64,000 nucleotides of DNA from Owenia fusiformis (Eukaryota): NCBI GenBank assembly GCA_903813345.2, contig CAIIXF020000001.1, positions 11,532,001-11,596,000 on the forward strand, written 5' to 3'. Every line of letters starts with the position of its first letter. Within the stretch, counting starts at the first letter, position 1. The translations under genes were made by a program, and so were the position numbers. A model generated the notes under the pieces. That model had not been told where the DNA came from. It worked only from the letters and a program-made list of their open reading frames with translations, and made no database searches. Positions 41,222-64,000 of the stretch are shown piece after piece.

Positions 41222-41345
41222 ATATATGAGACTTAATATTGACTACGTCTGCACTAATAACAACACAAGGGCTGTCTGGTCAGCACGTCAATCCTTCCCC
41301 TCAGGGCATGCAGCATTGGGAGCATTCTCTGCAGCATTTCTTTTT
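41222..41345 (+). CDS. PLPP: PLPP-like paralogue B, exon 4 (C2 motif)
   Basis: ARQSFPSGH. Phase-2 TAG acceptor and GTAAGT donor. 124 nt. Confidence 0.93.
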
Positions 41346-41706
41346 GTAAGTTTTTTGTTACGCATTATGAAAATCATTAAAATTCATTGTATATGTATGT
41401 TACTTAAATACCTTGGTAATTACTTGATTATCAGACTGAAAACTATTGTTTATACTGAACAGTATATCAACTATTTTTTGTGTTATTTGTGTATGTACTG
41501 TAAGAGTATCTGTACTTGAAAGTTATGAACATTTCTAAAAAAAAACATGGATACTTTTTGGAGGAATTTGATATTCTAACATATCAGACAGCAAGAACGA
41601 AATCATAGAAATGAACAAAAGAATGCTTTTAAATCAATTATTAATCATGAAAATGAATCCGTCATAAATTCAACTGATTTAATTGTTTTGAACTTAAATA
41701 TTTCAG

Positions 41707-41883
41707 GTGTATGCCAAGTACAAATGGTCCATCAACAAAACAGTAATCCTTGTACCATTTGTACAAATGCTATTGGTGGCTGCTGCCCTTCACAATGCTG
41801 TACTACGAATCGTTGAGCACCAACATCGCCATATAGATGTATGGGCTGGTAGTTTGATTGGTGTTTGCATTGGCATTCATATG
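41707..41883 (+). CDS. PLPP: PLPP-like paralogue B, exon 5 (C3 motif)
   Basis: LRIVEHQHRHID; 177 nt as in A. Confidence 0.95.
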
Positions 41884-42852
41884 GTAAGAACTAGTTCGAT
41901 CAAACAAAATATAGTACAAGTTGAAGGAAATAGTGGTAAAGTTAAGAATAATCATTTTAAAGCACTTACAGTAACAACTGGGCAATAATTCACGAAGGAC
42001 TGTGTTGACCAATAGTAAAAACATTACATGTCAGTAAAGTTCTTCCCTCTATCTTATTGGATGGGAATAACAAACTCGAATATGAGTGAGGTATCAATCT
42101 TGTGCTTTGTTACAGGGGTTTACAGTGGTTTACGTGGAGCCAAAGGATGTTGGAAGAATGCGAGACAGTTCCTATCAACTTGAATCATCTGGTAGCGTTC
42201 CATCAATAGCAAAATCACCAGTTTCAATGGAAACCTTACATGTACATACAGACAGTTTACCTTAACATATATGATTTAGAAAGCTATAGAGCTTTGTAAT
42301 CGTTTACGAGATCCATTTGGGAACGGGAATCCAATACAAGATACTCATGCCTATGGAACACAGAAAAGCCATAAAGAACGTGGGACTTTAATACCCCGAT
42401 TACTGGACAAGAATGAATCTGAATGGAACATAGAATACCGAGTTGAATGAAAAACACTTATAATGTTGAGAGTAAACACTCTAACAAAATTAAAATCCTG
42501 ACATTCAAATGCCATTGAATGTTTAGTACAAAAAGAATCACTAATGCTGTCAAGAGCATTAGAAAAGCACTTGTAAAATACAACCTGAACTATAGTAAAA
42601 CCTGGCTTCATGGAACACAATCATTTGGTACCTCTAAAACGTGTTCCACTTGGGAAGTGCTCCACTTGCAGAGGTTCATTTAACACAATGTCTTGGAACT
42701 CTGAAAAGTGTTACACTAACAACGGTGTTCCACTTTACATATATGTACATAATTATGATAATTATCACATTATGTAAATATAATTCATTTTGAAAAAAGG
42801 TCTCTGATCACGACAACGTGTAATATATACACACTGTGTTCTTCTTATTCAG

Positions 42853-45013: not shown

Positions 45014-45588
45014 TCACCTTCCTGCACATATCAACTTGGAGACTGGATCCACCACATAAGACAACTGATCAAACTGATCAACAGCAAAGACATGATTCTC
45101 ATCATGAGCAATTGCATTAACCTCATAATCCTGCTTTAGTCCAATGCCAACAGCAATTATCTCAATTCCCTCAAAACTTGCTCTGTCAGCTTGATTAATA
45201 GTTTGACCACTGTTCAGGTTTGAAACTCCATCTGTTAGTAGTATGAGATAATCTGGGGCACTTGCCCTGCCCCCATTAAAGGCTTGGAACATCTGCTCTC
45301 TCACAATCTGTATTCCAGCTGCTGTGTTCGTCTGACCAGGCTCATATTTGATGTTGAAAACAGCTTCTTGTAAAGCATCAGTATCCTCATATTGTCCTAA
45401 GTAAATTTCAACCTTAGCATTTGTGCTAAATGTTGCAACTCCGAAACGACTTTGACCCTTTAATTCATCTATAACCGCATCAATGAATTTCAACATTGTC
45501 AAAAAGTTGGGGTCAGTTACACTACCGGATGTGTCTAACAGAAAGACAAGTTCTGCTACATTGCCACAGCCTGCGCCAGAACCGGGAA
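45014..45588 (-). CDS. Exon encoding a complete VWA domain (probably terminal)
   Basis: LVFLLDTSGSV (MIDAS DxSxS), GQTNTAAG, ILLTDG. Phase-1 acceptor. Ends at TGA 45014; an AG|GT donor at the same spot is an alternative. Confidence 0.88.
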
Positions 45589-45741
45589 CTTAAAATTAAC
45601 AAAGAAAAAGAAATATCTTAATTATGTGAACGTTAAATCTTAATTAATTAATATTAAGGCTAAAAAGAAAAAGCACAATGTGCATAATTAGAAAAAACGA
45701 TTTTAACAAAACAGCTCAACTATTGTGTATTTCAGTGGTGC

Positions 45742-46706
45742 TAAATAGCAAAGTACCCCACACACTAATTAGTGACAAACTTTCCCTTTATTGAATCATT
45801 ATGAAATTTCACATGGACAAACTACAAGCAATTTCCAACACTCAAATTTCTTTGATTTGCTTGAATTTCAATTTTCAAAATTTTATAGTCATTTTTCACA
45901 TTTATGCTATATTTATGTATATTTGACACTTGAATAAACTTCAACATCCATAACTTTCTAAGTAGTTTTCCAACACATGACTGTTATATGAATTTTAATA
46001 ACTGATGAACAAGTTGATAGCAATTATGATGACAGTGATTCATGTCTTTGTGTAGATTCATATATGCTTTATGGGCCATCTGAATACATGACGGATATCT
46101 TTGGCATCTGTTTCTCCTACCCGTCTTATCCCTTTACTTCCTGCAAAGCGTCTATTGAAATCTTTACCAGTAGCTCTCTTTTTGAAGAATTTTTAAGACA
46201 TCGGTGTTGTTTATCATATCACCAAACAGTCATTGACAGCAAGTTAACATTCTTCAAAAGATTGCGGGCCTACAGTTGTGTGACCATATTCATCACAGGG
46301 GTTGCCAGGGGGATTCCACCCTAATACCTTTTGCTGTTATTGAATAGCTCACAACCGTTAAGTAGATGGTCTTTTGGAGAGGGCATCACTACATCAACAC
46401 AATTTTCTTTTAATTTTACCCGGAATTCAGGGATATTGTAGTGCTGCTTGTATGGATTCATGGCCTTCCTCAAGCATCCTAATCTATCCCACACAAGGGT
46501 CAACATCCCCCCCCCTAGGAAAAAGCAGGTGAAGTCACGGTGGCACCCCCCTCCTGGCAGGCCTTGTGATTTGAAAGCCTTAATATTGAGTTTTGGAAAT
46601 TGCTTGTAGTTTGTCCATGTGAAATTTCATAATGATTCAATAAAGGGAAAGTGTTTAAAACAAGTTTCAAAGTTTGTGACTAATTAGTATGTGGGGTACT
46701 ATTTAA
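45742..46706. mobile_element. DNA element with ~95-bp TIRs and a nested smaller MITE (46296-46566)
   Basis: AGTACCCCACA..CTAATTAGT..TTTCCCTTTATTGAATCATTATGAAATTTCACATGGACAA is inverted at 46583-46700. Nested CAGGGGTTGCCAGG / CCTGGCAGGCCTTG. Confidence 0.75.
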
Positions 46707-46958
46707 TTGGCATACACACATTTAGTCTTTCACTTCAAACTTATACACGCTTATATATTTGTTATGTTTATCATGCTAGCACTTAAAGAATCCAGAATGA
46801 GCTTATTTAATCATACAAGATTTTTCATGATCTATATTTACAGATATACTGTATTAAACCTGAGTATCATGCACAAGATAACTAATGAGTCTATACAAAC
46901 TCACTTATATAACTGATACATATAAGTAATAGTACAGCAATGATATTCTCAGCCTTAC

Positions 46959-47111
46959 CTATTACGTTGTAGTCTCCTATATCTATGAAATCTTAACAGT
47001 TAAAGCCTGTCCATTCGGGGCTGCACTGACATGTGTAGCCATTTTGGCTTTCATAACATAAGCCGTTATTCTGACAGGGTTCGCTCTCACATGCTCCCTC
47101 ATCTGGTGAAT
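46959..47111 (-). pseudogene. EGF exon with in-frame stop
   Basis: ACESEPCQNNGLCYESQNGYTCQCSPEWTGFNC*DFID; phase 1-1; CAG acceptor and GTAAGG donor intact. Confidence 0.85.
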
Positions 47112-48685
47112 CTGAAAGAGGCGTATACATGTATGATATAGCTCAATAGATATACTTACTCAATGACCTAATTTACCAACATGTTAAAGGCCCTAATATG
47201 GCAAAACACTGAACAACAGAAATATATGCATAGGACATAAATATAACTGTTGCATTGCCTATTGGCTTGCATTTACAATTTAGAGATTCTTTTAATAGGA
47301 TAAGTGTTGTAATCATGAATTCATGTGAATTCAAAGATCCATCATGATGATTACAGTAGATCTCTTCATTTTCATTCACTTCGAATTCTAGGTGTGTTAG
47401 ACACATTTTAATTTTAGACATCAGGCTATTTATTACAAATCAGATTACATAATTGTTTAATGCATTTATATTTAATAAGTACATAATTTGTTTATTTATT
47501 GTCACACATACAAACACATAGAAATGAATTATTTTTTATGATATTTACTATTAAACAATTCTACTATTACAATCGCATAATTTCCTCCTGATAAATCATA
47601 ATTTTCTCTTTATATGGTCATAGTATACAGGTAGCTCTAAAGTAACATATTTACAACAGAAATATGAATACAGACATTTAAATATGACTAGACATACAAT
47701 ACTGAGTTAATTTTCTCATAAATCTTAGTGTGTATTGAGACATTCCAAATCCTGAATGGCATTGCAGCTTTCCCAAATCATCATTTTCATTGGTCCTTGA
47801 TTAGGCCATTAACTCTTTAAGAACAAGGAATCAAGTTTATGGATGAAATCGGAAATACAATATACAAGACTATTATTTCAAAACTGACCATCCTTCATGC
47901 TGTTAGGGATGGGGGCAGCAAATACAGTGTACTTTGTATTACTATTTTCTGAGATCCCTCTCCTGTCAAGCCCAAAAAGCAATATGTAATGAGCCTTCCA
48001 AATTATCAAAACTGCAATTTTTTGAAATCATTGTATGATGATGAGGACTTGTAAAAAATGAATCAAGCCATATTTTGTACAACTATTTGAGAGATTCCTT
48101 TTATTGACCAGGACCCCTTTAGTAAGCCATAGAAACTAGATAATATAGATGTACGCGAGATACACACAATTCAATGGCAAAAAACACAGCTGCACCTCAA
48201 CACCTCATGGTTGCTAATTAATGCTGTCCTGGGTAAATGGGATTTATAGAAAATACTGCTGGATATATCTTGAAAAATATATAAGAAATATCAGCAGGTC
48301 GTCACTTTTTAGATACTTGCACTATATGTATACATCATAGATTGTAGAAGCTGAAGATAATACAAATGAATGACTGAATCTGTACTCTGACAACAGTAAA
48401 TAGCATCGAACCGTAAAAATATTATATACACACTGCACTGTTTACAATAAAACTTATACAAAAGAAAGTTAAAGAATACAATATTGTGGGGATTTCAGAA
48501 CAAAAATAGAAAAAAGAAAAAAAAAGTACAAGACATTGTACATACACACTGTTCATTATAAAACTTAAATATTACTTCTATGGCAGTGCATTGCTTGTAC
48601 GAGTCGATGATGTGCTTTTGCATATATAGTATAGAATGAGCATTCCTGGTTTCTTTTTGTTTAAAAGTTGGTTTGTTAGTATTGC

Positions 48686-48767
48686 CTGAAGGTGAGATCC
48701 ATTGTATGGAGCCCAGTCCATATCTGTGCGTTTATGTATGGGGTGACAAGGCATGGATCTGGGGGTA
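48686..48767 (-). pseudogene. Decayed EGF-like exon
   Basis: Phase-1 TTTTAAG acceptor, then PPDPCLVTPYIN..WTGLH (C-to-Y change and an internal deletion inferred). Only a GC donor is available. Confidence 0.4.
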
Positions 48768-49599
48768 CTTAAAATAATATTTCTGCATCATGTAAACTTA
48801 GACTTATTTCCGGTCAACTATCTTGAATTATCAACATGTCTGTGTGAATCATTGAAAATATTTCTTAATGGGCATCATCACTTTGAACTCCCAGATCCAG
48901 CCCTGTGTTAGTGCAATAAAGCAGAGAGTAGAAGATAAAGATTCAAGTCAGAATGGTGGATAGAAAGCTACAGTATGTCCAGCTGATCAGCTAGTGAACA
49001 TTACATGGTGTTCACAAATACAGTACAGAATAAAGAATGCTCCAAAGCCAAGTGTACAGTACAGGGTGTCCCCTAGACTAGTTTCCAGGTACGTATGGGA
49101 GGTCATAGCCTTCACGATAGTAACGCCCATCAGGACCGTAAAAGCTGGGTCGCCCTGTAATCGAATCAAAGTGCGATGCAGTAAAACATATTACCAGTGT
49201 ATTGGTTAAATTTTGTAAGGTTACTTTATTGAGAGTTAAATCAAAATCTGGGTTAATAAAAATAACATGTTTTACTGCATCTTAAAATATAAATCTTACA
49301 AAGACAGAACAGTTAACATTAGTATGAGCAAATTATCTTCATTATTTTAAGATAAACATTTTACATATCTTAACATTAATGCATGCACTATAAGTCCTAT
49401 TATTAAGAGGAATAAATGTCTAGCTGAATTAATCAAATTATATTAATTAATTAATCAAAGCTAAGGTGTTTTTTACTTTATTTTTAGTAGAAGTGTTACG
49501 ATGTGCAAGGGAAGGGTTAGATTCATTCAGGTAACCATAATTCTAGCTATTGATGGGGTACAATAAGAAAAAAGACTGAACCATGAAATGATATGTCAG

Positions 49600-50331
49600 A
49601 CTCTATAAACCTACACATTATTAGGACCATAGAAAAAAAATCAGGGGAATGTAAACAGAGAAATAAATCCAGGGAATGGTATCGTTATACTAACAACACA
49701 ACAGTGATTAGTCAGGATTTCATAATAAAAGTTCAAGAAGACTAACTCTAATGATGAACCTACACATAAGTGGGACCATAGAAAAAAAATCAGGGAATGT
49801 AATCTGAGAAATAAATCCAGGGAATGGTATCGTAATACTAACAACACAACAATGATTAGTCAGGATTTCATGATAAAAGTTAAAGTAGACTAACTCTAAT
49901 GATAAACCTACACATAAGTGGGACCATAGAAAAAAAATCAGGGAATGTAATCTGAGAAATAAATCCAGGGAATGGTATCGTAATACTAACAACACAATGA
50001 TGATTAGTCAGGATTTCATAATAAAAGTTAAAGTAGACTAACTCTAATGATAAACCTACACATAAGTGGGACCATAGAAAAAAAATCAGGGAATGTAATC
50101 TGAGAAATAAATCCAGGGAATGGTATTGTAATACTAACAACACAACATTGATTAGTCAGGATTTCATAATAAAAGTTAAAGTAGACTAACTCTAATGATA
50201 AACCTACACATAAGTGGGACCATAGAAAAAAATCAGGGAATGGAATCTGAGAAATAAATCCAGGGAATGGTATCGTTATACTAACAACACAACATTGATT
50301 AGTCAAAATTTCATAATAAAAGTTAAAGTAG
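49600..50331. repeat. 148-bp tandem repeat, about 5 copies
   Basis: GGACCATAGAAAA at 49624, 49773, 49921, 50069 and 50217. Confidence 0.95.
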
Positions 50332-50336
50332 AAAAC

Positions 50337-50471
50337 CTTCAGCTTAAGGCTGAACTTTAGTTTCACAGAAGTCTCCTGTAAAAGCTTCCGGACAGGTACA
50401 TTGTGTAGCATTGGGGGTTGCGACATCACAAAATCCTCCATTTATACACTTAGCATCGCTACATAAATCAC
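50337..50471 (-). pseudogene. EGF exon with in-frame stop before the phase-1 donor
   Basis: DLCSDAKCINGGFCDVATPNATQCTCPEAFTGDFCETKVQP*AE. The EGF frame is missed by the ORF track. Confidence 0.75.
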
Positions 50472-50980
50472 CTGAGAATGGCATGATATTATTGGTTGGT
50501 TTGAATTATATTTAGATATACATGTATATAGTCCCGATGGTACAAAGTTACTGTGTCAGGCGCTCCCTCGTCTTTGTTCTGACCAGAGTACAGAGGATTA
50601 ACATCAAAATATTGAGATGAAATAATCTCCATTCACAAAAAAGCAATTTTTTACAATGTTTGGTTGGATTTAGAGTTATATATTATAATCACAAATTATT
50701 TTAAATATCAATGTTACTAAAATGTGAAGTATTAATTTAATTAAATTCATATTATACTTGATCAACAACATTGTTAATAGTGATTACAGTAGAAATGATT
50801 ATTCACAAAAAACAAGTTTTATTGATTTAGAGATTTATGAGTATATTAATGCATAAGTTCCAAATTCATTAATTCAATGATTAACATGGAAGAAAATAGT
50901 CCTTATTTTGAAGGGTCTTGGGAAGCATATCACACAAAAATATGCTTTAAAATAGACACATGATTTTATCCCTTATCATT

Positions 50981-52126
50981 AACAAAACCAGAACAACGGC
51001 AACGCCAAAGCGTAGCGAATCCCATCGAACATTTTTCAAAACGGGCACCTTCTACCAAAAGTGTCATAAGACAGTGTGCCATGCTTATAATATTCACATA
51101 CCAAATATGAACAAAATCGCTCTACTACTTTTCGAGTTATAGTAAAATACATTAAAATGAAAAATGGCCGCCTTCTACCAAAAGTGTCATTAGACAGTGT
51201 GCCATGCTTATACGTATTCACATACCAAATATGAACAAAATCACTCCACTACTTATCGAGTTATCAAAATGGCAGCCATTTTTCAAAATGTCCGCCATTT
51301 TTCAAAATGGCCGCCTTCAAACAAAAGTGTCATTAGACAGTGTGCCATGCTTACAGTATTCACATACCAAATATGAAAAAAATCGCTCCACTACTTTTCG
51401 AGTTATAGTAAAATATGTTAAAATGGCGGCCATTTTGAAAAATGACCGCCCTCTACCAAAAGTGTCATTAGACAGTGTGCCATGCTTATACATATTCACA
51501 TACCAAATATGAACAAAATCGCTCCACTACTTTTCGAGTTTTAGTAAAATAAGTTAAAATGGCAGCCATTTTTCAAAATGTCCGCCATTTTTCAAAATGG
51601 CCACCTTCTACCAAAAGTGTCATTAGACAGAATGCCATGCTTATAGTATTCACATACCAAATATGAACAAAATCGCTCCAATACTTTTCGAGTTACAGCA
51701 AAAATCGTAAAACAACGAGTAAAGGCCACCATTTTTCAAGATGGCTGCCATGTGCTTTTTAATATCTACATTTCCAGCTTTATTAATGTCCTATATAATT
51801 TTTTTACATTTAAAACATATTGCTATTACAGTTTTACATATTGCACCTAAATTACTGTAAAATCGGCACTAAAATGGCCGCCATTTTTAAATGAGCGGCC
51901 ATTTTGAAAATTGGCTTTCGAGCAGAACTTCTACCCCCATAGGGTATATGTGTACAAAATATGAATAAAATCGGGCGAACGGTATTTGAGTTATTGCCCG
52001 GACGGACGGACGGACGGACGGACGTACGGACGGACGTACGTACGGACGGATGTACGTACGGACGGACGGACGGACGGACGGAGGCGTTCCCTATATCCCT
52101 CCGAACTTCGTTCGATGGGATAACAA
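50981..52126 (+). mobile_element. Complete Helentron-associated (HINE/DINE-1/pearl-type) non-autonomous element
   Basis: 5' subTIR GGCAACGCC, about 5 tandem core repeats (CTACCAAAAGTGTCATTAGACAGTGTGCCATGC...), a (GGAC)n microsatellite at 52000-52080, 3' subTIR GGCGTTCCC and terminal hairpin ATCCC..CGAAC-TTC-GTTCG..GGGAT. Confidence 0.85.
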
Positions 52127-52348
52127 CTAACAAAATTGGTCCTCTTCGAATTCAAAAGTTGTTATTACATACATCAGAAATGTTCTTGTGCAAATCTTAA
52201 TGGACGTAAATTCTTTGTCACATATATCAACTTAATTACATCCAACTTACTATATTCGCTTTTTATATAAAAGCTTTCCTTTTGGAATAAATTCAAACGA
52301 TTCATACTGAAACGGCAATAGTGGAACTTGATTTATTATTTGACATAC

Positions 52349-52495
52349 CTCTCAATGGATATTCACAGTTGTAACCACCGAAGCCTGGAGCGCAGTCACA
52401 TGTGTATATTCCCAGCTCATCTATGCAGATTCCATTGTTCTTGCATGGGTTGGACTTACACTGGTCAGTATCAGCGGGGAATTCACAGTTTATAC
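52349..52495 (-). CDS. Calcium-binding-type EGF exon of the disrupted ECM gene
   Basis: [45 protein letters not shown]; phase 1-1. Confidence 0.9.
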
Positions 52496-52619
52496 CTACG
52501 AGCACAAATATTTTAAGACTCTTCAGCGTAAAACATCTTACACATTTTCATAAATAGGACCAGGTGGCATGACATTGCCTTTCTATTAATCTATATTGTA
52601 AAGTAAGTGGAACACCTCC

Positions 52620-52716
52620 AAGTCTTGCCTCAACACAGTATACCCCCCCTTCCCATAACAAGGTGAACTACACAGGAGAGGGGGGGGGGGGTGTGGACAG
52701 TCCTGGGGCAAGACTC
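52620..52716. mobile_element. TAGTCT...AGACTA-family hairpin MITE nested in a pogo-type MITE
   Basis: AGTCTTGCCTCA / TGGGGCAAGACT ends. 9-bp flanks AACACCTCC / ACCACCTCC. Confidence 0.7.
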
Positions 52717-54472
52717 ACCACCTCCCAAGTGAAACTCTTTAAGAGGTACCAAAGGTGTTGCCCCTGCAAAGGTTTTACTTACTGTAGTTGCTTAAAGACT
52801 AGTCAAAGATAGGAAAATTGTATGTTCTTGGAAAATTAAAGACAGCAGGGATAATGTTAAAGAATATGAAGAAGCAAAATGATGGAAAATATGAAGTTTC
52901 AGGAGACAAGGCAGATGAGGTTTCTACATGTTATCTGATCTGCAAATACTTTTTTAACAATATAATTTAAGACCTGATTATTAAAGCAGTAATGAGTTTA
53001 AGCTAATTTAAAGCTCATAAAAATGATTACATTAAGATCATAAAATGGTAAAATAATCTTTCAAAGCAACTGTGGATGATACAATATTACAGCAAGTATA
53101 TTTACCATGATCACTATGGTATTAGGTGTATAAAGCACTTCGATTAAAATGATATAGAGTGTTCTTTATACCCGAGATTTTTTGATTTTCTTTTGACTAG
53201 AGTGCACAAATAATATGGTGTACCAGAATCCTTGTAAGTACGGTAAATCAAAAGATGTACATACATGTATATAGATTATTTAGTTAGAAGGATTGAATAT
53301 GCATTTTATCCTGAGGGAGGGACAATATGATATTTCAACAGGTATCTAGAGAAAGTAAAGATTCGAGGTTGATTAACTCAAACCTTATGATATTTCCCTT
53401 GATGTTTCCCTTTAATATCATATTGCTCAAGTAGAATATCAAATCATAGGCTTTCAGAAGTTTTTTGAAAGCACATGATCAAATCACTTTAGTACTGTAT
53501 AAAACCCATGCTCAATCCCTCTCAGTAAATAACCTATATTTACCTACATTTATTCAACTAAACAGTATCTTATTTTGGTAACATATAATTCAAAATTTAG
53601 CTTAAATATGCTAATACACAACAGAGTAAGAAATACATTTTGGACAAGAGAAATATAACTTGGGAAAGATTATAAGTCATTGTTTATGTTTCTCACGTTA
53701 TGAAAGTGAGTAAGGTATGGAGCTGTAATTATGCAAAGTGGAATACACAGTTGAAAGTGAGGCTTGACAAATATGCAATATGCAGTAAATGGGTCTCTGA
53801 CTGAAGTAAAGTAAAGAAAAAAACCTGTATATAGTGAACACCTATGAAACCACAAACAAAGTGTTCACTGTAGGCAGGTTTTCACTACAGGTTATTACAT
53901 GAATAAAACGTGCCTTGAAGTGGTGTTCACTAAACACAGGTGTTCACAAGAGATAGGACTTCAAAAAAGGTGTGCATTAAAGACAGGTTTTACTGTTTTT
54001 TATGTGCAATATGATTTATACAGAGTGATACTAATATACAAGACTTCTTAATCGTAATCTTCTAATCTTCTTGATCTGCGATTAGCCAATGAGAAAGTGA
54101 GAAACATCCCAATGATATAATAATCAAATGCAATTAATTACACTAACTACGCTAAACAAAGTTACATATTTCTTTTTTTCCTTGGCCTTTAAATAAAGGA
54201 AATGGAAAACCCCATATTATTCAGCACTCCTTGTTTTACATGTGTATATCTTATCTTTCATGGCATGTGATTGATGTGACTAATCACAAAATGATAAGCC
54301 TTACATTTTGATTGTAAATATCCTATAATTTATGAATAATATTTCTAATTATTCATATTTTATTCATCTTTAGATGATTTTTATTCATTAGTAGATATGA
54401 TATGATAAAGTCTATAAAGAAGAAAATGATAGCATAGGAATCAACTAATGAATAAAAATGATCTTATAATCA

Positions 54473-55151
54473 CACTCTATGCAGACTGTGCTATACCAAA
54501 ACAAGCGGTGCGGATATCATGTGTGCAAAGTGGGGATATTAACGGTCATTTTTGAAATAGAATTTGTGATATTTCACAAACTAAGGCTTGTTGGGTACTC
54601 AATTATATTCATACATGTGTACAGGTTCCCTAATAAAAAGGAAATTATGTAAATCGGTGTAACCTTCATTCTATAGCAACACATCAAGATTGAGATGCCC
54701 TATCAATTCAAATTATATTTGCATTTTGAAAGTTGAAAGGTTTCTGTGTGATTTAATACAAAATGGGAAACATTAAACAATAATGTGCAACCTCTAAACA
54801 AGTGGTGCGGATATCCGTAAAGTGATGTTATCCGCACCGCTTGTTTAGAGGTAGAACATATCCAATAAATCTTTTTAATTTTTCAAAAATTCACATAGAA
54901 AGTTTTTGACTTTAAAAATGAAAAAATAATTTATGTTGATAGGTCATCTCGATCACCTATACTGAATGAAGGCCATAAACTGTGTATTAAAGCAGCAATA
55001 TCAAATTCTTTGCAATGGAGAAAGGATGAATGCTTAGTGCAACATGCCTTGTTTATGAAATACAACAAATTCAAATATGACCATTAATATCCGCACCTTA
55101 TGCACATGATATCCACACCGCTTGTTTTCTTTTAGCAGTCTGTATAGGGTG
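54473..55151. mobile_element. Transib-like (CAC...GTG) MITE with internal palindrome
   Basis: CACTCTATGCAGACTG / CAGTCTGTATAGGGTG with an ~80-bp TIR; flanks AATCA / AACCA; central hairpin at 54790-54852. Confidence 0.75.
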
Positions 55152-55946
55152 AACCATAACAGTCTATTAAGGTATAATTTCAATGTACATTTATCGATGT
55201 GGGCAATGATTTTGAAGCATCACAAGATACAGGGTGTTCAAAAAGAAACAGGAAAACATTGTGTAGTCCTATAACTTTATTTTGGGAAGACCTTCTACAG
55301 TATGTATTTCGCTGAGCTCATGGAATTCTATATATTGTATTAGGATATATCTACAGTACATGCTCAGCTATAACTTACAGTCCTCAGCTGCTTTCAAAGA
55401 TTCACAGTTAACACCTTTAATTTAATCAGAATAGATGTAAATTCTAAAAATTGAAATTACAGCTCAGACTCTATATCTTTATTCAGACTATATATCATTA
55501 TTCCTAATAATGGGTGAAAGTGTACATTTACAAAATTTGTTAGTTCCCGGCATAGCATCTTGAAGTACTAATGACAATGAGAGCAGTGGTGAAAAAAGAT
55601 AAGAACAGAGGGTGGGGGGAGTCTGAGCTGAGGTGGGTATGGGTGAAAACAGGGGAGATATTGCAAATATTTCATACAATACAAACTGTGAATTTGTAAC
55701 AATTTCCCAAAAAATTAAACGAGGCATAGCATGAACAAGAGCATATCACAAGGTAGGCACCAATCATATTAAGTATAATGACAAGAAAATGGAACAACAC
55801 AGAAAGTGTCCAAAATAGCTTCAAAAAATTTAATCAGCTCTAAAACTTGATACCATTCCAGCCTGATATCAAAATATTGCCGTATACAATGGTGGACATG
55901 TATTTATGATAGACTTTATGAGTATCATTTGTATGTAAAAACTCAC

Positions 55947-56045
55947 CAGTGAACTTAATCTTGCATTTACAGATGTAGGAGTTAATATCATCCACACAAA
56001 ATCCATCGTTCTTGCATGGGTTACTCAAACACTGGTCGCCATCGC
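55947..56045 (-). CDS. EGF exon (domain split by the following intron)
   Basis: [32 protein letters not shown], then G|GTGAGT. Continues as GINCE in the next exon. Confidence 0.88.
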
Positions 56046-56467
56046 CTTAATTCAAAACACAGTAATTAGAGTACCAAAAGGGAATAGTGTCAAACAGTTT
56101 GAAAGAGAACAGTACCAAACAGTTTGAAACATTTAAAAATGTATATTTTCCAACTCAATCATAAAAAAAACATTCAATCTCTTTCATAAAACTATCTGCA
56201 TCAACCAAATTGAAACTAAAACTAAAATATGTCATGCTGGCGAGGTTTTGAAATGAAGCATCAGACTGAAATATTTTAATTAAAAAAGAATTAAGTTAAA
56301 ACAGGAATATCACAATTATAATATATATATTTATGTATTCTAAATGTATATGTCCTTTTTATTCCATGTTTGGGCAAATTTTACAACACAACAGGAAGAG
56401 GTGTATAAGAGTAGGATACATGGAGCATTTTATGTAAAACATACATGTATACAGAGCACCTACATAC

Positions 56468-56613
56468 CTTTGACAGTCAGCATTACTGAATCTGAGGCCT
56501 GTTTCCTCTGACCATCATACACTGTTAATCTGAACTTATATTTTCCAGTTCTAAAGTTGGATATCACAGGCTTTGGCTGGTTAAACCGGCGAATGGTGGC
56601 CATAGCTGGTCCT
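56468..56613 (-). CDS. PKD domain 2, second half
   Basis: GPAMATIRRFNQPKPVISNFRTGKYKFRLTVYDGQRKQASDSVMLTVK; phase 2-1. Confidence 0.88.
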
Positions 56614-57308
56614 CTGTGGATAGAAATGAAGAATTTTATGGACAAACTGGTGAATAGTGGCCATAGCTGGTCCTCTGTGGATAGAAATATAGAAGGTTAG
56701 GGACAAACTGGTGAATGGTGGCCATAGCTGGGCCTCTTTGGATAGAAATATAGAAGGTTAGGGACAAACTGGTGAATGGTGGCCATAGCTGGGCCTCTTT
56801 GGATAGAAATATAGAATTTTATGGACAAACTGGTGAATGGTGGCCATAGCTGGTCCTCTGTGGATAGAAATATAGAAGGTTAGGGACAAACTGGTGAATG
56901 GTGGCCATAGCTGGGCCTCTTTGGATAGAAATATAGAAGGTTAGGGACAAACTGGTGAATGGTGGCCATAGCTGGGCCTCTTTGAATAGAAATACAGAAG
57001 GTTAGGGACAAACTGGTGAATGATGGCCATAGCTGGGCCTCTTTGGATAGAAATATAGAAGGTTAGGGAAAAACTGGTGAATGGTGGCCATAGCTGGTCC
57101 TCTTTGGATAGAAATATAGAAGGTTAGGGACAAACTGGTGAATGGTGGCCATAGCTGGTCCTCTTTGGATAGAAATATAGAAGGTTAGGGAAAAACTGGT
57201 GAATGGTGGCCATAGCTGGTCCTCTTTGGATAGAAATATAGAAGGTAAGGGACAAACTAATGGTGGCTCTTTGGATAGAAATATAGGAGGTAAGGGGCAA
57301 ACTAATGG
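56583..57308. repeat. 61-bp minisatellite (11 copies plus truncated units) spanning an intron/exon junction
   Basis: CATAGC recurs at 56601, 56662, 56723 ... 57211 with an exact 61-bp period. Confidence 0.95.
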
Positions 57309-57570
57309 CACCACCTGCGATTTGTTATTGACAGCATTTTTATAGACCTCATGTTTCAGACACTGACTGCAGAATGCTGAACACCAACCGCCATCCACAA
57401 AGTTTGAGACTGTACTATTATATCACTGCTTGGGGTGGTGATTTAATGATATCACTCAAAGTGATCTGATAATGTATAATACAACAAAAAATCTGGTTGT
57501 CATGTACAAAAAAACAACAACAATGTGTGATAATAATTTCCTCTTATATGTACAATATTTGAATACTCAC

Positions 57571-57703
57571 GCCTCTTGTGACCACCTATATCTCAAAATG
57601 CCCTTGTCATCTGAGCTCTTAGTGCCATCAAGCTGCACCTCAGGCTCACCAAATGTAGTCTCCACATCATCACCTGCATTGGCGATTGGTGGTGGGTTCT
57701 CAG
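57571..57703 (-). CDS. PKD domain 2, first half (KIAA0319-type)
   Basis: ENPPPIANAGDDVETTFGEPEVQLDGTKSSDDKGILRYRWSQE; phase 1-2. Confidence 0.9.
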
Positions 57704-58052
57704 CTGGAATACATTCATTATTCAATTTACATGTACACCAATTTCCATACCAGACCGTTCATACATAGGAAGTTTTTCCAATTTATACATGGTTTCACCA
57801 ATTTCAACATGCTCTAAAATTTTCCAAAATTTTGTTCGATCTGGTAAGGAAAAAATGAACTGAATGTTTTCGTATTCAAGCAGTTTATTTTTCATAAATA
57901 GATTACAGTAAAACCTGTCTTTGTGAACACCTCTCTCTAGTTACCCTCTGTAGTGAACACCTACCAAAACTGAAAGTTTTTTCTTGGCAAAAAATGTTCA
58001 ATATACCCAGATTTCACTGTACTATCTACAGTATGTGTATGAAATCCCTTAC

Positions 58053-58194
58053 TTTTGACCTCTACTCTGACTTTGTCTTCATCTTCCAGACCATCAGAGT
58101 CAGTGACCTTCACCTTAAACACATAGATCCCATCCTGCAGGTTGGACAATATTGCCTTTGGACCATTCTCACTTTTATATCAACTGGGGGACCA
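58053..58194 (-). pseudogene. PKD domain 1, second half, with a 1-nt frameshift
   Basis: GPPVDIK and ENGPKAILSNLQDGIYVFKVKVTDSDGLEDEDKVRVEVK lie in different frames. The exon is 142 nt where 143 is needed. Confidence 0.85.
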
Positions 58195-58517
58195 CTGAAA
58201 ATATAAGTTTTTATTTGTTTATATAGATATTTGTATATTAGAATATTGTATACAGATATGAACTGGAAAAACAAATAGATACTAGTATTGGTACATGTAC
58301 ATGTGTCTTAGAGATTTCATGATTCAGTTGAACAAATCAAGAACACAAAATAAACACACTTAAAAATGTCAAAAAATTCCTTTTAATCTTCTATAGGGAA
58401 AAGTTGACTATTCTATTATGACTTAAACCTGTTCCAACATAAAAATTTCAATTTTGTGATTTGAGTTGCCTAGCATTATGTGTCCATGCACTTGGTATGT
58501 ATGTATGGAAAGCCTAC

Positions 58518-58647
58518 CTTTGTTTCTCCCATTGGTATCTCAGGCCTGGTTGTTCATCCTTACTGCCAGAAGCATCCAATGTAACAGCCTCAGGTCCTGG
58601 TAATGAGATGTATTGGGCCTTGCCAGCATTCGCCTTAGGGGGGATTT
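58518..58647 (-). CDS. PKD domain 1, first half
   Basis: IPPKANAGKAQYISLPGPEAVTLDASGSKDEQPGLRYQWEKQ; phase 1-2. Confidence 0.9.
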
Positions 58648-58904
58648 CTAACAACAAAAATACATGTAATGTGTCTTGGTTATTTCAGAGCAATCCTCAA
58701 TATTTTCTCAACCAAATGCAAATTAAGTTAATATCAACCTAATCTCCATAGGAAACATAGAAGACTGGTTAAAATTAAGTTTACAAGAGAGGAACCGAAA
58801 TACAATGGTTTTACCTCCAAGATTTTGTCACCATTTCCAACAGCAATTACACAAATGTACCTTTGTAACTATTTCGGAAAATATGTCCAAAGCTTCCACC
58901 TTAC

Positions 58905-58989
58905 CTATTTTGATCGAGACATTCTTGATATCACATAGACTGTCATACACCTTCTTGGTTTCATTCACCAAAAGATCAAATGAAGGCAC
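58905..58989 (-). CDS. VWA domain 2, last exon
   Basis: VPSFDLLVNETKKVYDSLCDIKNVSIKI; phase 0-1. Confidence 0.85.
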
Positions 58990-59322
58990 CTGAAATCAAA
59001 TAATTCACAAGGAAATGTCATCAATGTGTAATATAAGCACACATGCCAAAAGGGAAAAAGAGGCATCTAAGAGCACAAGCAGTCATCAGGAAAACAAACA
59101 CCCCAATAACCCAAATTATGACCTAAATAACCTGGACACAAACACCCACTCTCCACTTTAATGAAATGGTGAAGATTTCAAATTCATAGCTTTCACAACT
59201 GCATTGAAAATTTCATTTTGAGATCACAGATAGCTAGCGTCTCGTCATCCCATGGTCACTCGAGAGAGTTTTTGACAGCTGACCCATAAAGTGGGCTGAG
59301 CAGCAGAGTAAAACATACTTAC

Positions 59323-59433
59323 CAAGAAGACTGATGATGGGTCATTGACTATTTTCTGCAGTTCTTCAGTTCTGTTTGACATGTTCACTCCAATACCTAT
59401 AATCTTAACACCAGAGTTACGCAGCTTTCGCGA
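59323..59433 (-). CDS. VWA domain 2, third exon
   Basis: SRKLRNSGVKIIGIGVNMSNRTEELQKIVNDPSSVFL; phase 0-0. Confidence 0.88.
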
Positions 59434-59746
59434 CTGAAATACACATTGAATAAATACCTAACTTACATATCTTTACTTTAAATGATAAATTATATCATAT
59501 ACAGTATACAGTTCAATGATTGAGCATTACATGCTAATAATATATGACATCAGAAAATGCTGAGCACCATGTATGTTCAATTTATTAATATTAAATACAT
59601 TTAATGGTTCAGTTTAAATATTTCAAAATGGGTCGAAAAACATGTATAACATCATATGATGAACTGTAACCAATACAAAAATTGCCTTGTGTATATGATA
59701 TACAGATGTGGCTCATGAGCTTTAGGGCTCCTTTCCGATCTCATAC

Positions 59747-59995
59747 CCCACTCAATGGAACTTCAGGGTTGATATTTGATTCTCCATCCACAATAAGTAT
59801 AACAATATTAGGTCTGTTTTTGCGATCCTTTCCATAAAACACGTCTTCATTCAACACTTGGAAGCCCTCTCCGGTGTTTGTGCTGCCCCCATAGTAGTCT
59901 GTTCTGTCTAGACCCCTCAGGACACCCTCCTTAGTGTAATACTGCTCAAAGCCAAATTGGATATCAGCCTCTGTACTGAATGTTACTAAGGCAAC
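59747..59995 (-). CDS. VWA domain 2, second exon
   Basis: VALVTFSTEA...YYGGSTNTGEG...RPNIVILIVDGESN; phase 0-0. Confidence 0.9.
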
Positions 59996-60305
59996 CTATA
60001 AAAGAACCATGGCGATTATTAACATTGACTTTCACAGAGTTGAACATATTGCACTCAACTGCCATTCAAACGAGTCAGTCAACTTAGACACCTTTATAAT
60101 TTATAATATTGAGTCGAAAAGCTCATAGTGGTCAGATTAAAATAGGCACTAACGTGCAAAATATCTGCCATTGGTTACAGACGCTGAAAGCTGAACACCG
60201 ACCACCGAACATCAATGCTAAAAAAGTTGAAGACTATATATACTACAGTATGTCCACTAAACTCTATACTGATCTATCTACGTATAAGTTGGAAAGTGTT
60301 ATTAC

Positions 60306-60439
60306 CTGAGAATGACTCCCTCCCACATGAAGTTTCTCAATTATGGTCTTCACAAATGCCTTGACCTTAGCAAAGTTCGACTCTCCCATTGAGAAGGACT
60401 GATCAAAAAGGAAAGCAAGATTCCTCCTTGCTGGACACC
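60306..60439 (-). CDS. VWA domain 2, first exon
   Basis: CPARRNLAFLFDQSFSMGESNFAKVKAFV (DxSxS); phase 1-0. Confidence 0.9.
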
Positions 60440-60534
60440 CTGAAGGAAAAAACATACATACAGACAAATGGAATAAGAAACAGGGCATTAATATGGCAAA
60501 AGGTCACCACCTAGTTGCTCACAATATTATTAGA

Positions 60535-60995
60535 TTAATCTTAAGTCAGATTTGAATTTCTTAAAACTCTGTAGAGGATTTTGAAAAAAATGTCAATTTG
60601 AAGCAAAAAAATACCTTTTTTTACCCTGAGAAGGTCATTGAAGGTGAAAACTGAAAGTCAGATTTGAAAGTCAGATTTGAACTTCTGAGAACTTGTAGAT
60701 GATTTTGAAACAAATTGGTCAATTTGAAGCAAGTTGAAAAAATACCTTTTTGAACCTTTTTTTAAAAGGTCAAATCTTAAATGTAAAGTCAGAATTGAAC
60801 TTCTGAAAACTTGTAGATGATTTGGAAAAAAATTGAAGTCAGTCTAAAAAGTATTTGTTAAGTTATTGGAAGTTTTAAGAATTTGTTACAGACGCCAACC
60901 ACCAACCGCCAGCCACCGATTGCCAACCACCGATCAACAACCGCAGCCACAAAAAACGGAGATCATAACATGATAACAATATGTCACCACTTTTT
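60535..60995 (+). mobile_element. HINE-like element with tandem core repeats
   Basis: Three to four AAGTCAGATTTGAA...TGTAGATGATTTTG units, followed by TTGTTACAGACGCC, a CCA/CCG microsatellite and TATGTCACCAC. Confidence 0.65.
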
Positions 60996-61124
60996 AATAT
61001 TTGTAATGGTATTTTGAAACAAGTTAAAAAGCCCTTTACTTTGTATTCTGCCTTCTTTATAACTAAAAAAATTCATCATTCAACACAGGAAAAGTCAAGA
61101 TTAAAAATATTTTCAGGCTCTTAC

Positions 61125-61238
61125 CATGTTCACATTTATCCCCTGAGAAGCCCTCTACACATTCACACACATAAGTGGTAATTTTGTCAACACATGAACC
61201 TCCATTCAAACAGGGGTTCTCTGTACAGAAACCTGTGT
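61125..61238 (-). CDS. EGF exon
   Basis: [37 protein letters not shown]; phase 1-1. Confidence 0.9.
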
Positions 61239-61511
61239 CTGAAATACATGTGGGAACATAAATCTTAAGTGGCAATTAAATCTTATGTAGATTTTTATCT
61301 CTCATGGGTCCCTTTAAGAATTATATGTGGTATTGAATTGGATGCAAATATACACATTTAAGTAATATCTTGTGATATTATTCTATTTCTATGTCAAATG
61401 ACAATTCATGAAAAGAATTTCGTCATAGAGATCTGATTCTTGAAAATATTGCAGGAATTCAAAAAGTCAATATTTTCAAAATGTTTTTTTTAATCAATGA
61501 ACTTGGCAAAC

Positions 61512-61710
61512 CTTGACAAATAGCCTTTATAATCTTTGTTTCTACTTTCTCAAGGTCTATAAACTCTTTCGCAATGCAATGTATGCATTCATTTCTGAAG
61601 GTTCACTGGCGATAGCGAGAAGTTCCTGGCGTCCTATGTCCGAGATGTTCATACCAACTGTTATGATGTGGATGTCATGCTTCTTAGCCTTTCTTGCTTC
61701 AGTAATTGTC
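61512..61710 (-). pseudogene. VWA domain 1, last exon, with a 5-bp duplication frameshift
   Basis: TITEARKAKKHDIHIITVGMN...ELLAIASEPSEMNAYIA, then the ATTGC duplication leads to TAG at 61559-61557. The repaired frame continues KEFIDLEKVETKIIKAICQ. Confidence 0.88.
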
Positions 61711-61901
61711 CTTATAAATAAAAATAACTCAAGGTTGATTTAGAGCTTGAAAATCTCCTTTACCAATTTTTACCAAAGAGAGGTGTCTATTTGAACTGAA
61801 CTTGAATAGTTCTATATTATATCATATGTACATGTATCTATTCAGAAAACATTGATTATATTGAATTGTCTGCCTCGATCCCTTTAACATTTGGTTCATA
61901 C

Positions 61902-62083
61902 CTGAATGTGTTTATGTTAGATTCCCCATCAGTCATTAGGATGGCAATGTTCTGTATATTTGGTCGATCACCATTGTAATGGCGGAACATCTTACGTCTC
62001 AACATGGAAAGAGCTGCCCCTGTATAGGTGTCGCCATATTCATATTCAAGAGCTCCAATAGCACGATGTAAACTCAATTTGTC
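61902..62083 (-). CDS. VWA domain 1, internal exon
   Basis: DKLSLHRAIGALEYEYGDTYTGAAL...GDRPNIQNIAILMTDGESN; CAG acceptor and AG|GTATGA donor. Confidence 0.9.
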
Positions 62084-64000
62084 CTGTAAATATTAAAATA
62101 TAAATGTGTAAATGCAAATGTTAAATCTTAAACCATTTTTGTTCTTGTTTTTCCTGTAGCTTTTATTTATTTTATGGATCAGGTTGATATTTCAAACATT
62201 GTATACTGATGAACTTGATGAATTCTGATTAACGTCAAGTTTTGGTAGTTGCAGATGGCTCTCAATTAAAATTAAAATATTCTCTAACACAAGAAAAACT
62301 AGGGATACTATAAACTTTTTATTTCTACTTTCCAGTTTTCATGCATCAAAACACTTCAACCATACTACACCTGTTGAGAATTCGAAAAATACCTTGTACC
62401 CTATTGAAATCATTTTTTGTTTGAGATTTTTGATACTTCTTATAATAATATTTTCGTCTTTTACATTACACTATACTTGGCAATATCACTTAAATATTTG
62501 GAGATCTCTTAAATAAAGAGTGAATGCATGGCCATAGCTAATGAAGCAGGTGAAAATATTCATCTAAATTCAATGTTAAGAGCAAACCAAACTCAGAATC
62601 CCATGTATTGCCCATGGTCTTACCGAAATTATTGTGTGGTTTAAAATGCAGCTCTAAAATTCATCCAGCTTTTCCATTTAATTTAATATCTAATCAAACT
62701 AATTCCCCCTCAAATGATCCCCATGTACATGTTACTGTAAATCATGTTATTGCCACAGAAATTCTTAAACAAAATAGTCTTAAAAAATTCCACAAAAAAA
62801 CTTTTTTTGATTACAATAATTATGATTAAAACCTCACAAACAAACTGATATTAGATAGCTTAGAATAATTTGAAAGGTCGGTTTTTCTATAAATGTGTTT
62901 TAATTGAGAAATATGAGCATAGAATTGACCAATTTCAAACAAAATGTGTTTTTTTAAATTGTCTTCCAGAGTGACCAGATCAGCCTGACCTTGTAATTCT
63001 TGCAAAGGCCATCAATTTCAATTCTAATAATAGATCTGTCAATCAAATCTTGGACTGCATTGTACTGAAATGTTATTTCTAGTTTGATTGTTCATGTTTT
63101 GGGATTTTGATTTTCTATAATAACTAGAATTGAAGTTTTGAAATAATGTTCAACATTTAATTTTGATGCATTATAAAAAGTATTCAAATATATGAGGTCA
63201 AAATGACCTATTTCATGCAACAAACTAGTGAGGTTTATAATCTAGGAAAATCAGCAATGATTTAAAATTATAAAAATGAATTTTGAAAGAAAAACATAAT
63301 TTCTGATAAAATCTTAGTTGATTGATTAAGTTGTTTGTAGATATCTACACGGGTAACTAGAGTATCCGCGTATATTGAGTATGACCGGTTCTTAGGCTAC
63401 GAATATGACCTGTTTTGGAAAGTCATGAGAGGCACAGCTGCTTAAAAATGGAAAATAAAGGTTAACTTCTATATTATCCTTTTTGAAATTGTGTTTGTTG
63501 AATATAGTTTATGCTGTATTTAATAGTAATGTAACAAAAAAATGTTAAACATGAGCTATTTTAGCAATGTAACTGTTCATAATGGAATATCAATCAGAAA
63601 GTACAGATTTCTCGCCTTAGAGCCAAATCATTAATATCACAGTAGAAAAAAACAAATCCCAAACCTTTTTATGGCTAACCTGAACAAGATCTCCAAATCT
63701 CAGTTTATATGATCCCCCGTAGAGTGAGCAATAGAAGGATCTATCTTTTCCCAGAGGATACGCTTGTGAAATGTCGTGGAAACGAGTGTAACACGGCCCA
63801 CTGATTGTTTCACAATCGTATTCTCCAATAATGGGGCACCAGTGACATTCGTATTCTCAAAAATTCAAAGATGTATCATATTTGGACAGAGCAGGCTAAA
63901 TTATTTAAAATATTCATGACTAATTCGTAGATCTAGCTATATATTATACATACGATGTGTCATCCTCTTCGGAGTTGCGTTGTGTTACACAAAAACTGAT

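What the first reader, a model, noticed from the sequence alone, without database searches (positions are those of the whole stretch)
45014..62083. Large ECM gene caught early in pseudogenisation: four or more independent lesions, splice sites mostly intact
Seen: all exons join in the correct phase once repaired and keep GT-AG sites. Yet there is a 5-bp duplication (61571-61580), a 1-nt deletion (~58173-58176), TAA at 50344-50346, TAA at 46993-46995 where E/Q normally follows the last EGF Cys, and a decayed exon near 48700. Inference: a recently dead gene copy or null haplotype that automated annotation would split or force into a false model. The 1-nt loss is next to an A-run and could be a sequencing error. 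The duplication and nonsense substitutions are not homopolymer-type errors.
Basis: partly seen in the sequence, partly recalled or inferred. Interest (0 to 1): 0.75.

Follow-up and report, generated by a model that had tools for sequence, protein, structure and literature searches.

The report
Broken reference copy of matrix gene
A large mollusc-type extracellular-matrix gene is broken in this assembly by two frameshifts and two stop codons, but other animals of the species carry or express unbroken versions at both frameshift sites, so this is a defective haplotype or an assembly error, not a gene dying in the species.

Summary
The minus strand of 62083-45014 holds 16 exons, all AG...GT, of a gene cut off at its 5' end. 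Its domain order is VWA-EGF-VWA-PKD-PKD-EGFx4-VWA. These are the 5-bp tandem duplication at 61571-61580, a missing base at 58173/58174, an in-frame TAA at 50344-50346, and an in-frame TAA at 46993-46995 directly after the last EGF cysteine. The "decayed exon near 48700" has no support.

Reads change the interpretation. Contigs of two other DNA samples from two studies both lack the 5-bp duplication. All 4 of 4 RNA reads from a third sample carry the base missing from the window. RNA depth is strand-specific and mostly over exons, so the gene is alive and expressed in the species. The window copy also has 4 private exonic substitutions, all non-synonymous, three of them at conserved VWA positions.

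The best reading is a degenerate null haplotype of a working gene. Assembly error is the main rival. The two TAAs could not be tested with reads. The public annotation models only a 160-aa fragment from the last exon. This is an ordinary phenomenon of low interest.

The parts
61902..62083 (-). Exon 1 seen in the window: middle of VWA1, starting in phase 0. The N-terminal half of VWA1 and the gene start are not in the window.
   Evidence: Pfam VWA 1.9e-11. Boundaries. No VWA-like ORF in 62092-64000.
61512..61710 (-). Exon 2: C-terminal part of VWA1, carrying the frameshift.
61571..61580 (-). Lesion 1: tandem ATTGC ATTGC, 5 extra nt. It leads to a premature TAG.
   Evidence: Sequence. 'Left out 5' at 61571 in X1 (123.6/123.6, 1 contig) and in X2 (16.8/16.8, 1 contig).
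61125..61238 (-). Exon 3: EGF1.
   Evidence: Pfam EGF 1.5e-11..
60306..60439 (-). Exon 4: start of VWA2 with the DxSxS motif. Window-private Phe at 60407, where the other samples have Leu.
59747..59995 (-). Exon 5: middle of VWA2. Window-private Pro (59758) and Gly (59748). The 59748 change also turns the donor context GAG|GT into GGG|GT.
59323..59433 (-). Exon 6: VWA2, third part.
58905..58989 (-). Exon 7: VWA2 C-terminal helix and Cys, with a linker.
58518..58647 (-). Exon 8: first half of PKD1.
   Evidence: Pfam K319L-like_PKD 4.7e-4..
58053..58194 (-). Exon 9: second half of PKD1, carrying the frameshift.
   Evidence: Pfam K319L-like_PKD 5.2e-8..
58173..58176 (-). Lesion 2: one base is missing between 58174 and 58173. 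It is a G on the minus strand, beside an A-run.
   Evidence: Frame change seen. 'Put in behind 58173: C' in 4 of 4 RNA reads (3 starts) of X21. X1 and X2 have no contig over the site.
57571..57703 (-). Exon 10: first half of PKD2.
56468..56613 (-). Exon 11: second half of PKD2.
   Evidence: Pfam K319L-like_PKD 1.1e-7..
56583..57258 (-). Tandem array of 61 bp x 11. Each unit copies the branch-site-like CTAAC, the pyrimidine tract, the AG and the first ~31 nt of exon 11. The result is about 11 decoy 3' splice sites upstream of the real one.
   Evidence: TRF, 94% matches. Copies shown in register.
55947..56045 (-). Exon 12: EGF2. Its last Cys is encoded at the start of exon 13.
52349..52495 (-). 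Exon 13: end of EGF2 and all of EGF3.
50337..50471 (-). Exon 14: EGF4 and a linker, with weak donor GTTTTC. A 148-bp x 4.9 tandem array (49605-50332) begins 3 nt after the donor GT.
50344..50346 (-). Lesion 3: in-frame TAA in the linker after EGF4. Not covered by any reads.
46959..47111 (-). Exon 15: EGF5 and a linker.
   Evidence: Pfam EGF 1.8e-7..
46993..46995 (-). Lesion 4: TAA where the other four EGFs of this gene have GAA (Glu). Not covered by any reads.
45014..45588 (-). Exon 16: complete VWA3 with DxSxS and flanking cysteines, ending at stop TGA 45016-45014. Its last 160 codons are the only part annotated as a public protein.
   Evidence: Pfam VWA 2.4e-39.. P0048 is 100% identical over 160 aa.

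Best explanation
This is a real gene for a secreted-type adhesive matrix protein of a mollusc-like animal, and the species expresses it. It contains at least three VWA domains. VWA2 and VWA3 carry the DxSxS metal-site motif. There are also five EGF modules and two K319L-type PKD domains. The copy in this assembly is a degenerate, non-functional haplotype (a null allele). It carries a 5-bp duplication, a 1-nt deletion, probably one or two nonsense codons, and several damaging amino-acid changes. Other individuals carry and transcribe intact alleles. Once the first lesion removed selection on this haplotype, later changes accumulated neutrally.

Shown: the lesions are in the assembly. Both frameshifts are absent from the other samples. 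RNA comes from the gene's strand.

Inferred: the lesions exist in the source animal's DNA, the TAAs are also private to this haplotype, and the protein has a matrix or adhesion role.
For: - Gene reality: 16 AG...GT exons in consistent phase, with 2 internal stops against about 57 expected. Pfam finds VWA, EGF and K319L-like PKD on the exons.
- The frameshifts are not fixed. The 5 nt at 61571 are left out in X1 and in X2, which come from two studies. The extra base behind 58173 is in 4 of 4 X21 RNA reads.
- Expression: X21 depth in unique bins is only on 'first mate on +'. It is above zero in most exon-bearing bins and zero in 4 of 6 purely intronic bins.
- The window is a distinct natural haplotype, not just a noisy consensus. 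Differences from X1 are mostly substitutions with many transitions. Among the 40 of 75 substitution rows shown, 9 unique-sequence sites have both X1 and X2 fully differing from the window.
- Relaxed constraint on the window lineage. The 4 window-private exonic substitutions are all non-synonymous: I110R, F175L, P288T and G291E, written window>others. The 4 exonic differences among the other samples are 3 synonymous and 1 non-synonymous.
- At 175, 288 and 291 the other samples' residues (L, T, E) match five homologues and the gene's own VWA1 and VWA3. The window's F, P and G do not.
- TAA 46993 is one substitution from the GAA found after the last Cys of the other 4 EGFs of this gene and in 3 of 3 aligned homologues. 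Substitution errors are not typical of assemblies (established knowledge).
Against: - No run is shown to be the assembled individual, so the two indels may not exist in real DNA. The 1-nt loss sits beside an A-run. A shared homopolymer-length difference at about 60220-60223 shows that such differences occur here.
- The N/S contrast rests on 8 sites (my own Fisher calculation gives about 0.07). 35 substitution rows were not shown.
- X1 and X2 have no contig over 58173, so the intact state there rests on 4 RNA reads of one run.
- Neither TAA was covered by reads, so they might be shared by all alleles.
- Contigs show presence, not absence, so the window alleles could be rare in X1 or X2 rather than missing.
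Confidence: 0.55

Rival explanations
1. Assembly or consensus artefact. The source animal's gene is intact at the two indel sites, and the frameshifts arose in long-read consensus or in polishing across heterozygous haplotypes.
For: - Both frameshifts are absent from every other sample that covers them.
- The 1-nt loss adjoins an A-run.
- A homopolymer-length difference shared by X1 and X2 lies at about 60220-60223.
Against: - A 5-bp tandem duplication is not a typical consensus error (established knowledge).
- The two TAAs and the four private non-synonymous substitutions at conserved sites are substitutions, which assemblies rarely invent.
- Apart from 61571 and the T-run, no other indel is shared by X1 and X2 in about 3.8 kb of unique sequence.
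Confidence: 0.25
2. The window is a recent extra copy, a dispensable paralogue present in some individuals only, that has died. The reads and contigs come from the functional paralogue elsewhere in the genome.
For: - Reads were accepted at 95% likeness or more, so a near-identical paralogue would lie on the window.
- Gene presence-absence variation is reported as massive in a mussel (PMC7653742; I saw the search listing and the start of the abstract only).
Against: - At window-private sites X1 and X2 show only the other allele, so the window copy is not present beside it.
- Depth is flat at single-copy level across unique bins.
- No whole genome is held to look for a second locus.
- No second VWA gene is in the window.
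Confidence: 0.12
3. Species-wide young pseudogene.
For: Four lesions lie in one copy with intact splice sites. The public annotation models only a fragment.
Against: Two of two testable lesions are absent in other samples, and strand-specific RNA carries the intact frame.
Confidence: 0.03
4. One or both TAAs are not lesions. The protein naturally ends after EGF4 or EGF5, and the downstream exons are an alternative 3' end or a relic.
For: No reads or orthologues cover these sites. The donor after TAA 50344 is weak (GTTTTC) and abuts a 148-bp array.
Against: - Both downstream exons keep phase, strong domain scores and cysteines (VWA3 at 2.4e-39).
- TAA 46993 replaces a Glu codon that is otherwise invariant.
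Confidence: 0.05

Closest known systems
Matrilin / cartilage-matrix-protein-like and collagen-VI-like VWA proteins of molluscs (the sources' own names for the best hits: Haliotis, Mactra, Elysia)
   Same: VWA domains alternate with EGF modules. Cysteines flank each VWA. DxSxS is present in VWA2 and VWA3. VWA3 is 36-40% identical to these proteins.
   Different: - Two K319L-like PKD domains lie between VWA2 and the EGF run, and the three best co-linear homologues lack them.
- The protein ends right after VWA3, with no coiled coil.
- No collagen triple helix is seen in the window.
- There is no close orthologue. Apart from the self fragment, the best HSPs are EGF-only matches of up to 57% identity over 37 residues or fewer.
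Segregating (polymorphic) pseudogenes, meaning null alleles of otherwise functional genes (a concept recalled from general knowledge)
   Same: One haplotype has several loss-of-function lesions, while other haplotypes are intact and expressed.
   Different: The frequency of the broken haplotype is unknown, and even its physical existence is not shown here. Two of the four lesions are untested.
Dispensable genes under presence-absence variation in bivalves (PMC7653742; search listing and start of abstract only)
   Same: An individual-specific state of a non-housekeeping, multi-domain gene in a mollusc-like genome.
   Different: Here the gene is present but broken, not absent. I did not establish that the organism is a bivalve.

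Membership tests
VWA-domain proteins (Pfam PF00092) | A VWA fold profile match above the curated cut-off | tested here: met
   Exon 16 scores 135.8 bits against a cut-off of 23.8. Exons 1, 4 and 5 are also above the cut-off. Exons 2 and 6 are below it, being short pieces.
VWA-domain proteins (Pfam PF00092) | The MIDAS DxSxS motif (motif recalled from knowledge) | tested here: met
   DQSFS in VWA2 and DTSGS in VWA3, read from the translation. The start of VWA1 is outside the window.
EGF-like modules (PF00008) | Six-cysteine module with a profile match above the cut-off | tested here: met
   Five exons score 28.7-44.7 bits against a cut-off of 21.5.
K319L-like PKD domain (PF22352) | Profile match above the cut-off of 27 bits | tested here: met
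   The second halves score 33.2 and 32.2 bits. The first halves (20.5 and 25.3) are below the cut-off because each domain is split over two exons.
Matrilins | A C-terminal coiled-coil oligomerisation module after the last VWA or EGF (recalled) | tested here: not met
   The stop codon comes 3 residues after the closing Cys of VWA3.
Collagen VI-like chains | A Gly-X-Y triple-helical region | tested here: inconclusive
   None among the 909 codons in the window. The 5' part of the gene is outside the window.
Unitary (fixed) pseudogene | Disabling lesions shared by all individuals | tested here: not met
   Lesion 1 is absent in X1 and X2. Lesion 2 is absent in 4 of 4 X21 RNA reads. Lesions 3 and 4 were not tested.
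Unitary (fixed) pseudogene | Relaxed constraint (dN/dS near 1) against an orthologue | not testable with these tools
   No close orthologue or paralogue was found. Only a count over 8 polymorphic sites was possible.
Segregating null allele | Broken and intact forms both exist as real DNA at one locus | tested here: inconclusive
   The intact form is shown. The broken form is known only from the assembly. Raw DNA run X24 gave almost no depth on unique sequence.

The most novel reading that the evidence does not exclude
A long-lived 'dead' haplotype of a large matrix gene persists in the population beside expressed alleles and has collected four or more independent lesions. That would make this VWA-EGF-PKD gene dispensable or recessive-null in a highly polymorphic marine invertebrate. 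The 61-bp array, which multiplies the 3' splice site and the start of exon 11 eleven-fold, may add a splicing hazard to the inactivation.
Probability: 0.3. Interest if true: 0.4.

Novelty: new member of a known kind. Interest (0 to 1): 0.22.

Why it matters
This matters mainly as a caution for annotation and comparative work. The reference sequence misrepresents a gene that is alive in the species, and the public annotation keeps only a 160-aa fragment of a protein of more than 900 aa. If the broken haplotype is real, it is a tidy example of a multi-lesion null allele. It could be used to ask how long such alleles survive in very polymorphic invertebrate populations. It does not open a new biological question.

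Tried and rejected
- Whole genome: none is held, so there was no search for a paralogue.
- The look-up of sequencing runs: no RNA holder was listed among the indexed runs. RNA evidence comes only from the raw-read run X21, which was added by species label.
  - Raw DNA run X24 gave near-zero depth outside repeats.
  - The joint table was filled by repeat-derived joints (15 of 157 shown), so no splice junction could be read.
  - 35 substitution rows were not shown.
- Search for same-species ORFs over the EGF5 exon, read with X at the TAA: no candidate.
- Exon 5 against longer proteins: 80 candidates, none significant.
- VWA3 against longer proteins and against all representatives: only distant VWA proteins plus the 160-aa self fragment. 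No orthologue-based check of the TAAs and no dN/dS was therefore possible.
- Alternative splice sites that would avoid the lesions:
  - An AG inside exon 9 would restore the frame but delete 7 domain residues.
  - Donors inside the last Cys codons of EGF4 and EGF5 would remove the sixth Cys.
  - I rejected all of these as normal forms.
- 'Decayed exon near 48700': rejected.
- Apparent truncation of EGF2: rejected, because the module is completed by the next exon.
- Earlier findings of the scan: none for this genome or its relatives. The one sequence hit was an unrelated bacterial note.
Full report
WHAT IS THERE

The window is AT-rich (GC about 0.30-0.40). On the minus strand from 62083 down to 45014 it carries a chain of 16 exons. 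Every exon has an AG acceptor, and all 15 internal junctions have a GT donor. Pfam assigns the exons to VWA, EGF and K319L-like PKD domains. The order is VWA1 (C-terminal two thirds only), EGF1, VWA2 (four exons), PKD1 (two exons), PKD2 (two exons), EGF2 to EGF5, and VWA3 (one 575-nt terminal exon, 135.8 bits).

The start of VWA1 and the gene's 5' end are not in the window. No VWA-like frame lies in 62092-64000. The best relatives of VWA3 are mollusc proteins that their sources name collagen alpha-4(VI)-like, matrilin-4-like or cartilage matrix protein-like, at 36-40% identity, so the animal is probably a mollusc. No other VWA gene is in the window. PAP2-type exons lie on the + strand at about 22.5-42 kb.

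CHECKING THE OBSERVATION

Read as it stands, the exon chain collapses into stops after exon 2. I masked five bases of the ATTGC ATTGC repeat at 61580-61571 and placed one N between 58174 and 58173. The chain is then 2730 nt, or 909 codons, in consistent phase, with only two internal stops at 50346-50344 and 46995-46993. The local stop frequency of 0.063 per codon would give about 57 stops.

- Duplication. It puts the conserved VWA1 C-terminal helix and cysteine out of frame.
- Missing base. The break in exon 9 falls inside the PKD1 domain. The parallel PKD2 exon shows that the seven residues before the break are domain residues. An internal AG that would restore the frame is therefore not a normal acceptor.
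- TAA at 46995-46993. It directly follows the sixth cysteine of EGF5. The four other EGFs of this gene have GAA at that position, and three aligned homologues have Glu there. Eleven open codons and a strong phase-1 donor follow, and they fit the last exon.
- TAA at 50346-50344. It lies in a linker, 7 nt before a weak donor (GTTTTC). That donor is itself 3 nt from a 148-bp tandem array.

The "decayed exon near 48700" has no Pfam hit even at E<=10. It has no DNA similarity to the EGF exons beyond shuffles, and it has no GT donor. The EGF2 exon looks truncated but is not. Its last cysteine is encoded at the start of the next exon.

WHAT THE READS SAY

One search found 24 runs of one species label, organism A. 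Eight of them hold half or more of the sampled words. I laid 57320-62100, chosen to avoid the long tandem arrays, on two contig sets from two studies (X1, X2), one raw DNA run (X24) and one raw RNA run (X21).

- Lesion 1. The 5 bases at 61571 are left out in X1 (depth 123.6 of 123.6; a 1126-nt contig spans 61106-62100). They are also left out in X2 (16.8 of 16.8; a 313-nt contig spans 61491-61808).
- Lesion 2. 4 of 4 RNA reads (3 starts) carry an extra C behind 58173 on the + strand, which is a G on the gene's strand. This restores the frame as ...AAG AGT.... X1 and X2 have no contig over that site.
- Expression. In unique bins the RNA depth is only on "first mate on +", as expected for a stranded library and a minus-strand gene. 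It is above zero in most exon-bearing bins (0.16-2.4) and zero in 4 of 6 purely intronic bins. Exon 2, exon 7 and part of exon 1 had no reads at this low depth.
- Limits. X24 gave almost no depth on unique sequence. Splice joints could not be read because repeat-derived joints filled the table (15 of 157 shown).

Both testable lesions are therefore absent from other samples, and an intact-frame transcript exists. A species-wide pseudogene is excluded for these two lesions.

IS THE WINDOW COPY REALLY DEFECTIVE, OR MIS-ASSEMBLED?

None of the runs is shown to be the assembled animal, so this cannot be settled. Three points favour a real, diverged haplotype.

1. The differences from X1 and X2 are mainly substitutions, with many transitions. 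That is not the indel-rich pattern of consensus error.
2. Among the rows shown (40 of 75), nine unique-sequence sites have both X1 and X2 fully differing from the window. Four of them are exonic, and all four change the protein: I110R, F175L, P288T and G291E, written window>others. The four exonic differences among the other samples are three synonymous and one non-synonymous. My own Fisher calculation on these 8 sites gives about 0.07, which is suggestive only.
3. At 175, 288 and 291 the other samples' residues agree with five homologues and with the gene's own VWA1 and VWA3. The window has Phe, Pro and Gly instead. The G291 change also weakens the exon 5 donor context from GAG|GT to GGG|GT.

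In addition, the TAA at 46993 is a substitution in an otherwise invariant Glu codon.

Points against: the 1-nt loss adjoins an A-run. X1 and X2 also share a homopolymer-length difference from the window at about 60220-60223. Some consensus error is therefore possible.

I put a real null haplotype at 0.55 and assembly error at 0.25. A dead extra copy present only in some animals gets 0.12, a fixed pseudogene 0.03, and natural stops 0.05.

ANNOTATION

A full HMMER scan of 1.84 billion representatives found one same-sequence protein, P0048. It is 160 aa and 100% identical to the last 160 residues of exon 16. It comes from NCBI/UniRef and sits on a 62.2-Mb contig. Exon 5 is in no protein of 147-2000 aa. 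The EGF5 exon read with X at the TAA found nothing. There is also no close orthologue in these libraries, so dN/dS against a relative could not be computed.

HOW THE GENE LIKELY WORKS (INFERENCE)

VWA2 and VWA3 have the DxSxS metal-site motif, and disulfide-closing cysteines flank the VWA domains. Together with tandem EGF spacers and PKD-type Ig-like domains, this is the make-up of a secreted, multivalent adhesion or matrix protein. It is not a matrilin in the strict sense, because there is no C-terminal coiled coil. No collagen helix is seen in the window.

OTHER STRUCTURE

A 61-bp x 11 array (56583-57258, 94% matches) is built from the last ~30 nt of the intron plus the first ~31 nt of exon 11. 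The intron part holds a CTAAC, the pyrimidine tract and the AG. The array therefore places about eleven decoy 3' splice sites upstream of the true one. Using any decoy would add 61n nt and meet a stop. The copies differ by about 6%, far more than the roughly 0.3-0.6% between haplotypes. The array is therefore probably older than the haplotype split and tolerated by working alleles. That is an inference and was not tested.

VERDICT

The headline interpretation is not. This is a working gene whose reference copy is broken, most likely a degenerate null haplotype and possibly in part an assembly error. That is an ordinary phenomenon in polymorphic invertebrate genomes. PMC7653742 reports massive gene presence-absence variation in a mussel; I saw only its listing and the start of its abstract.

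Noticed in passing
window 56583-57258 (minus strand), next to exon 11 at 56613: A 61-bp x 11 tandem array made of the 3' splice site (CTAAC, pyrimidine tract, AG) plus the first ~31 nt of the PKD2 second exon. It places about eleven decoy acceptors directly upstream of the real one.
   Followed up: partly
window 49605-50332: A 148-bp x 4.9 tandem array (95% matches) begins 3 nt after the GT of the weak donor of exon 14. The unit occurs nowhere else in the window (4 matches, all within the array).
   Followed up: partly
window 57800-58119 and 60360-60999: Very high-copy dispersed repeats lie in two introns. Contig word depth reaches about 1.3 million against about 150 in unique bins, and RNA and DNA reads pile up on both strands. 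These repeats swamped the joint and loose-end tables of the read lay.
   Followed up: no
window 60040-60199 (the 310-nt intron between exons 4 and 5): There is strand-specific RNA depth of 1.21, with 7 of 7 reads showing G>T at 60173, in what the model treats as intron. No in-frame cassette exon is visible, so this is possibly intron retention.
   Followed up: partly
window 22506-22814, 37653-37913, 41202-41516, 41698-41985 (+ strand): ORF pieces with weak PAP2 (phosphatidic acid phosphatase type 2) matches, all below the Pfam cut-off. This suggests one or two PAP2 genes convergent with the matrix gene.
   Followed up: no
window 51030-51703 and 51999-52082: A 290-bp x 2.4 repeat containing short palindromic AAAATGGCCGCCATTTT motifs, and a (CGGA)21 microsatellite. 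Both lie in the intron between exons 13 and 14.
   Followed up: no
window 59748: The window has GGG|GT at the exon 5 donor where X1 and X2 have GAG|GT. The same base change is the Gly/Glu difference at residue 291.
   Followed up: partly
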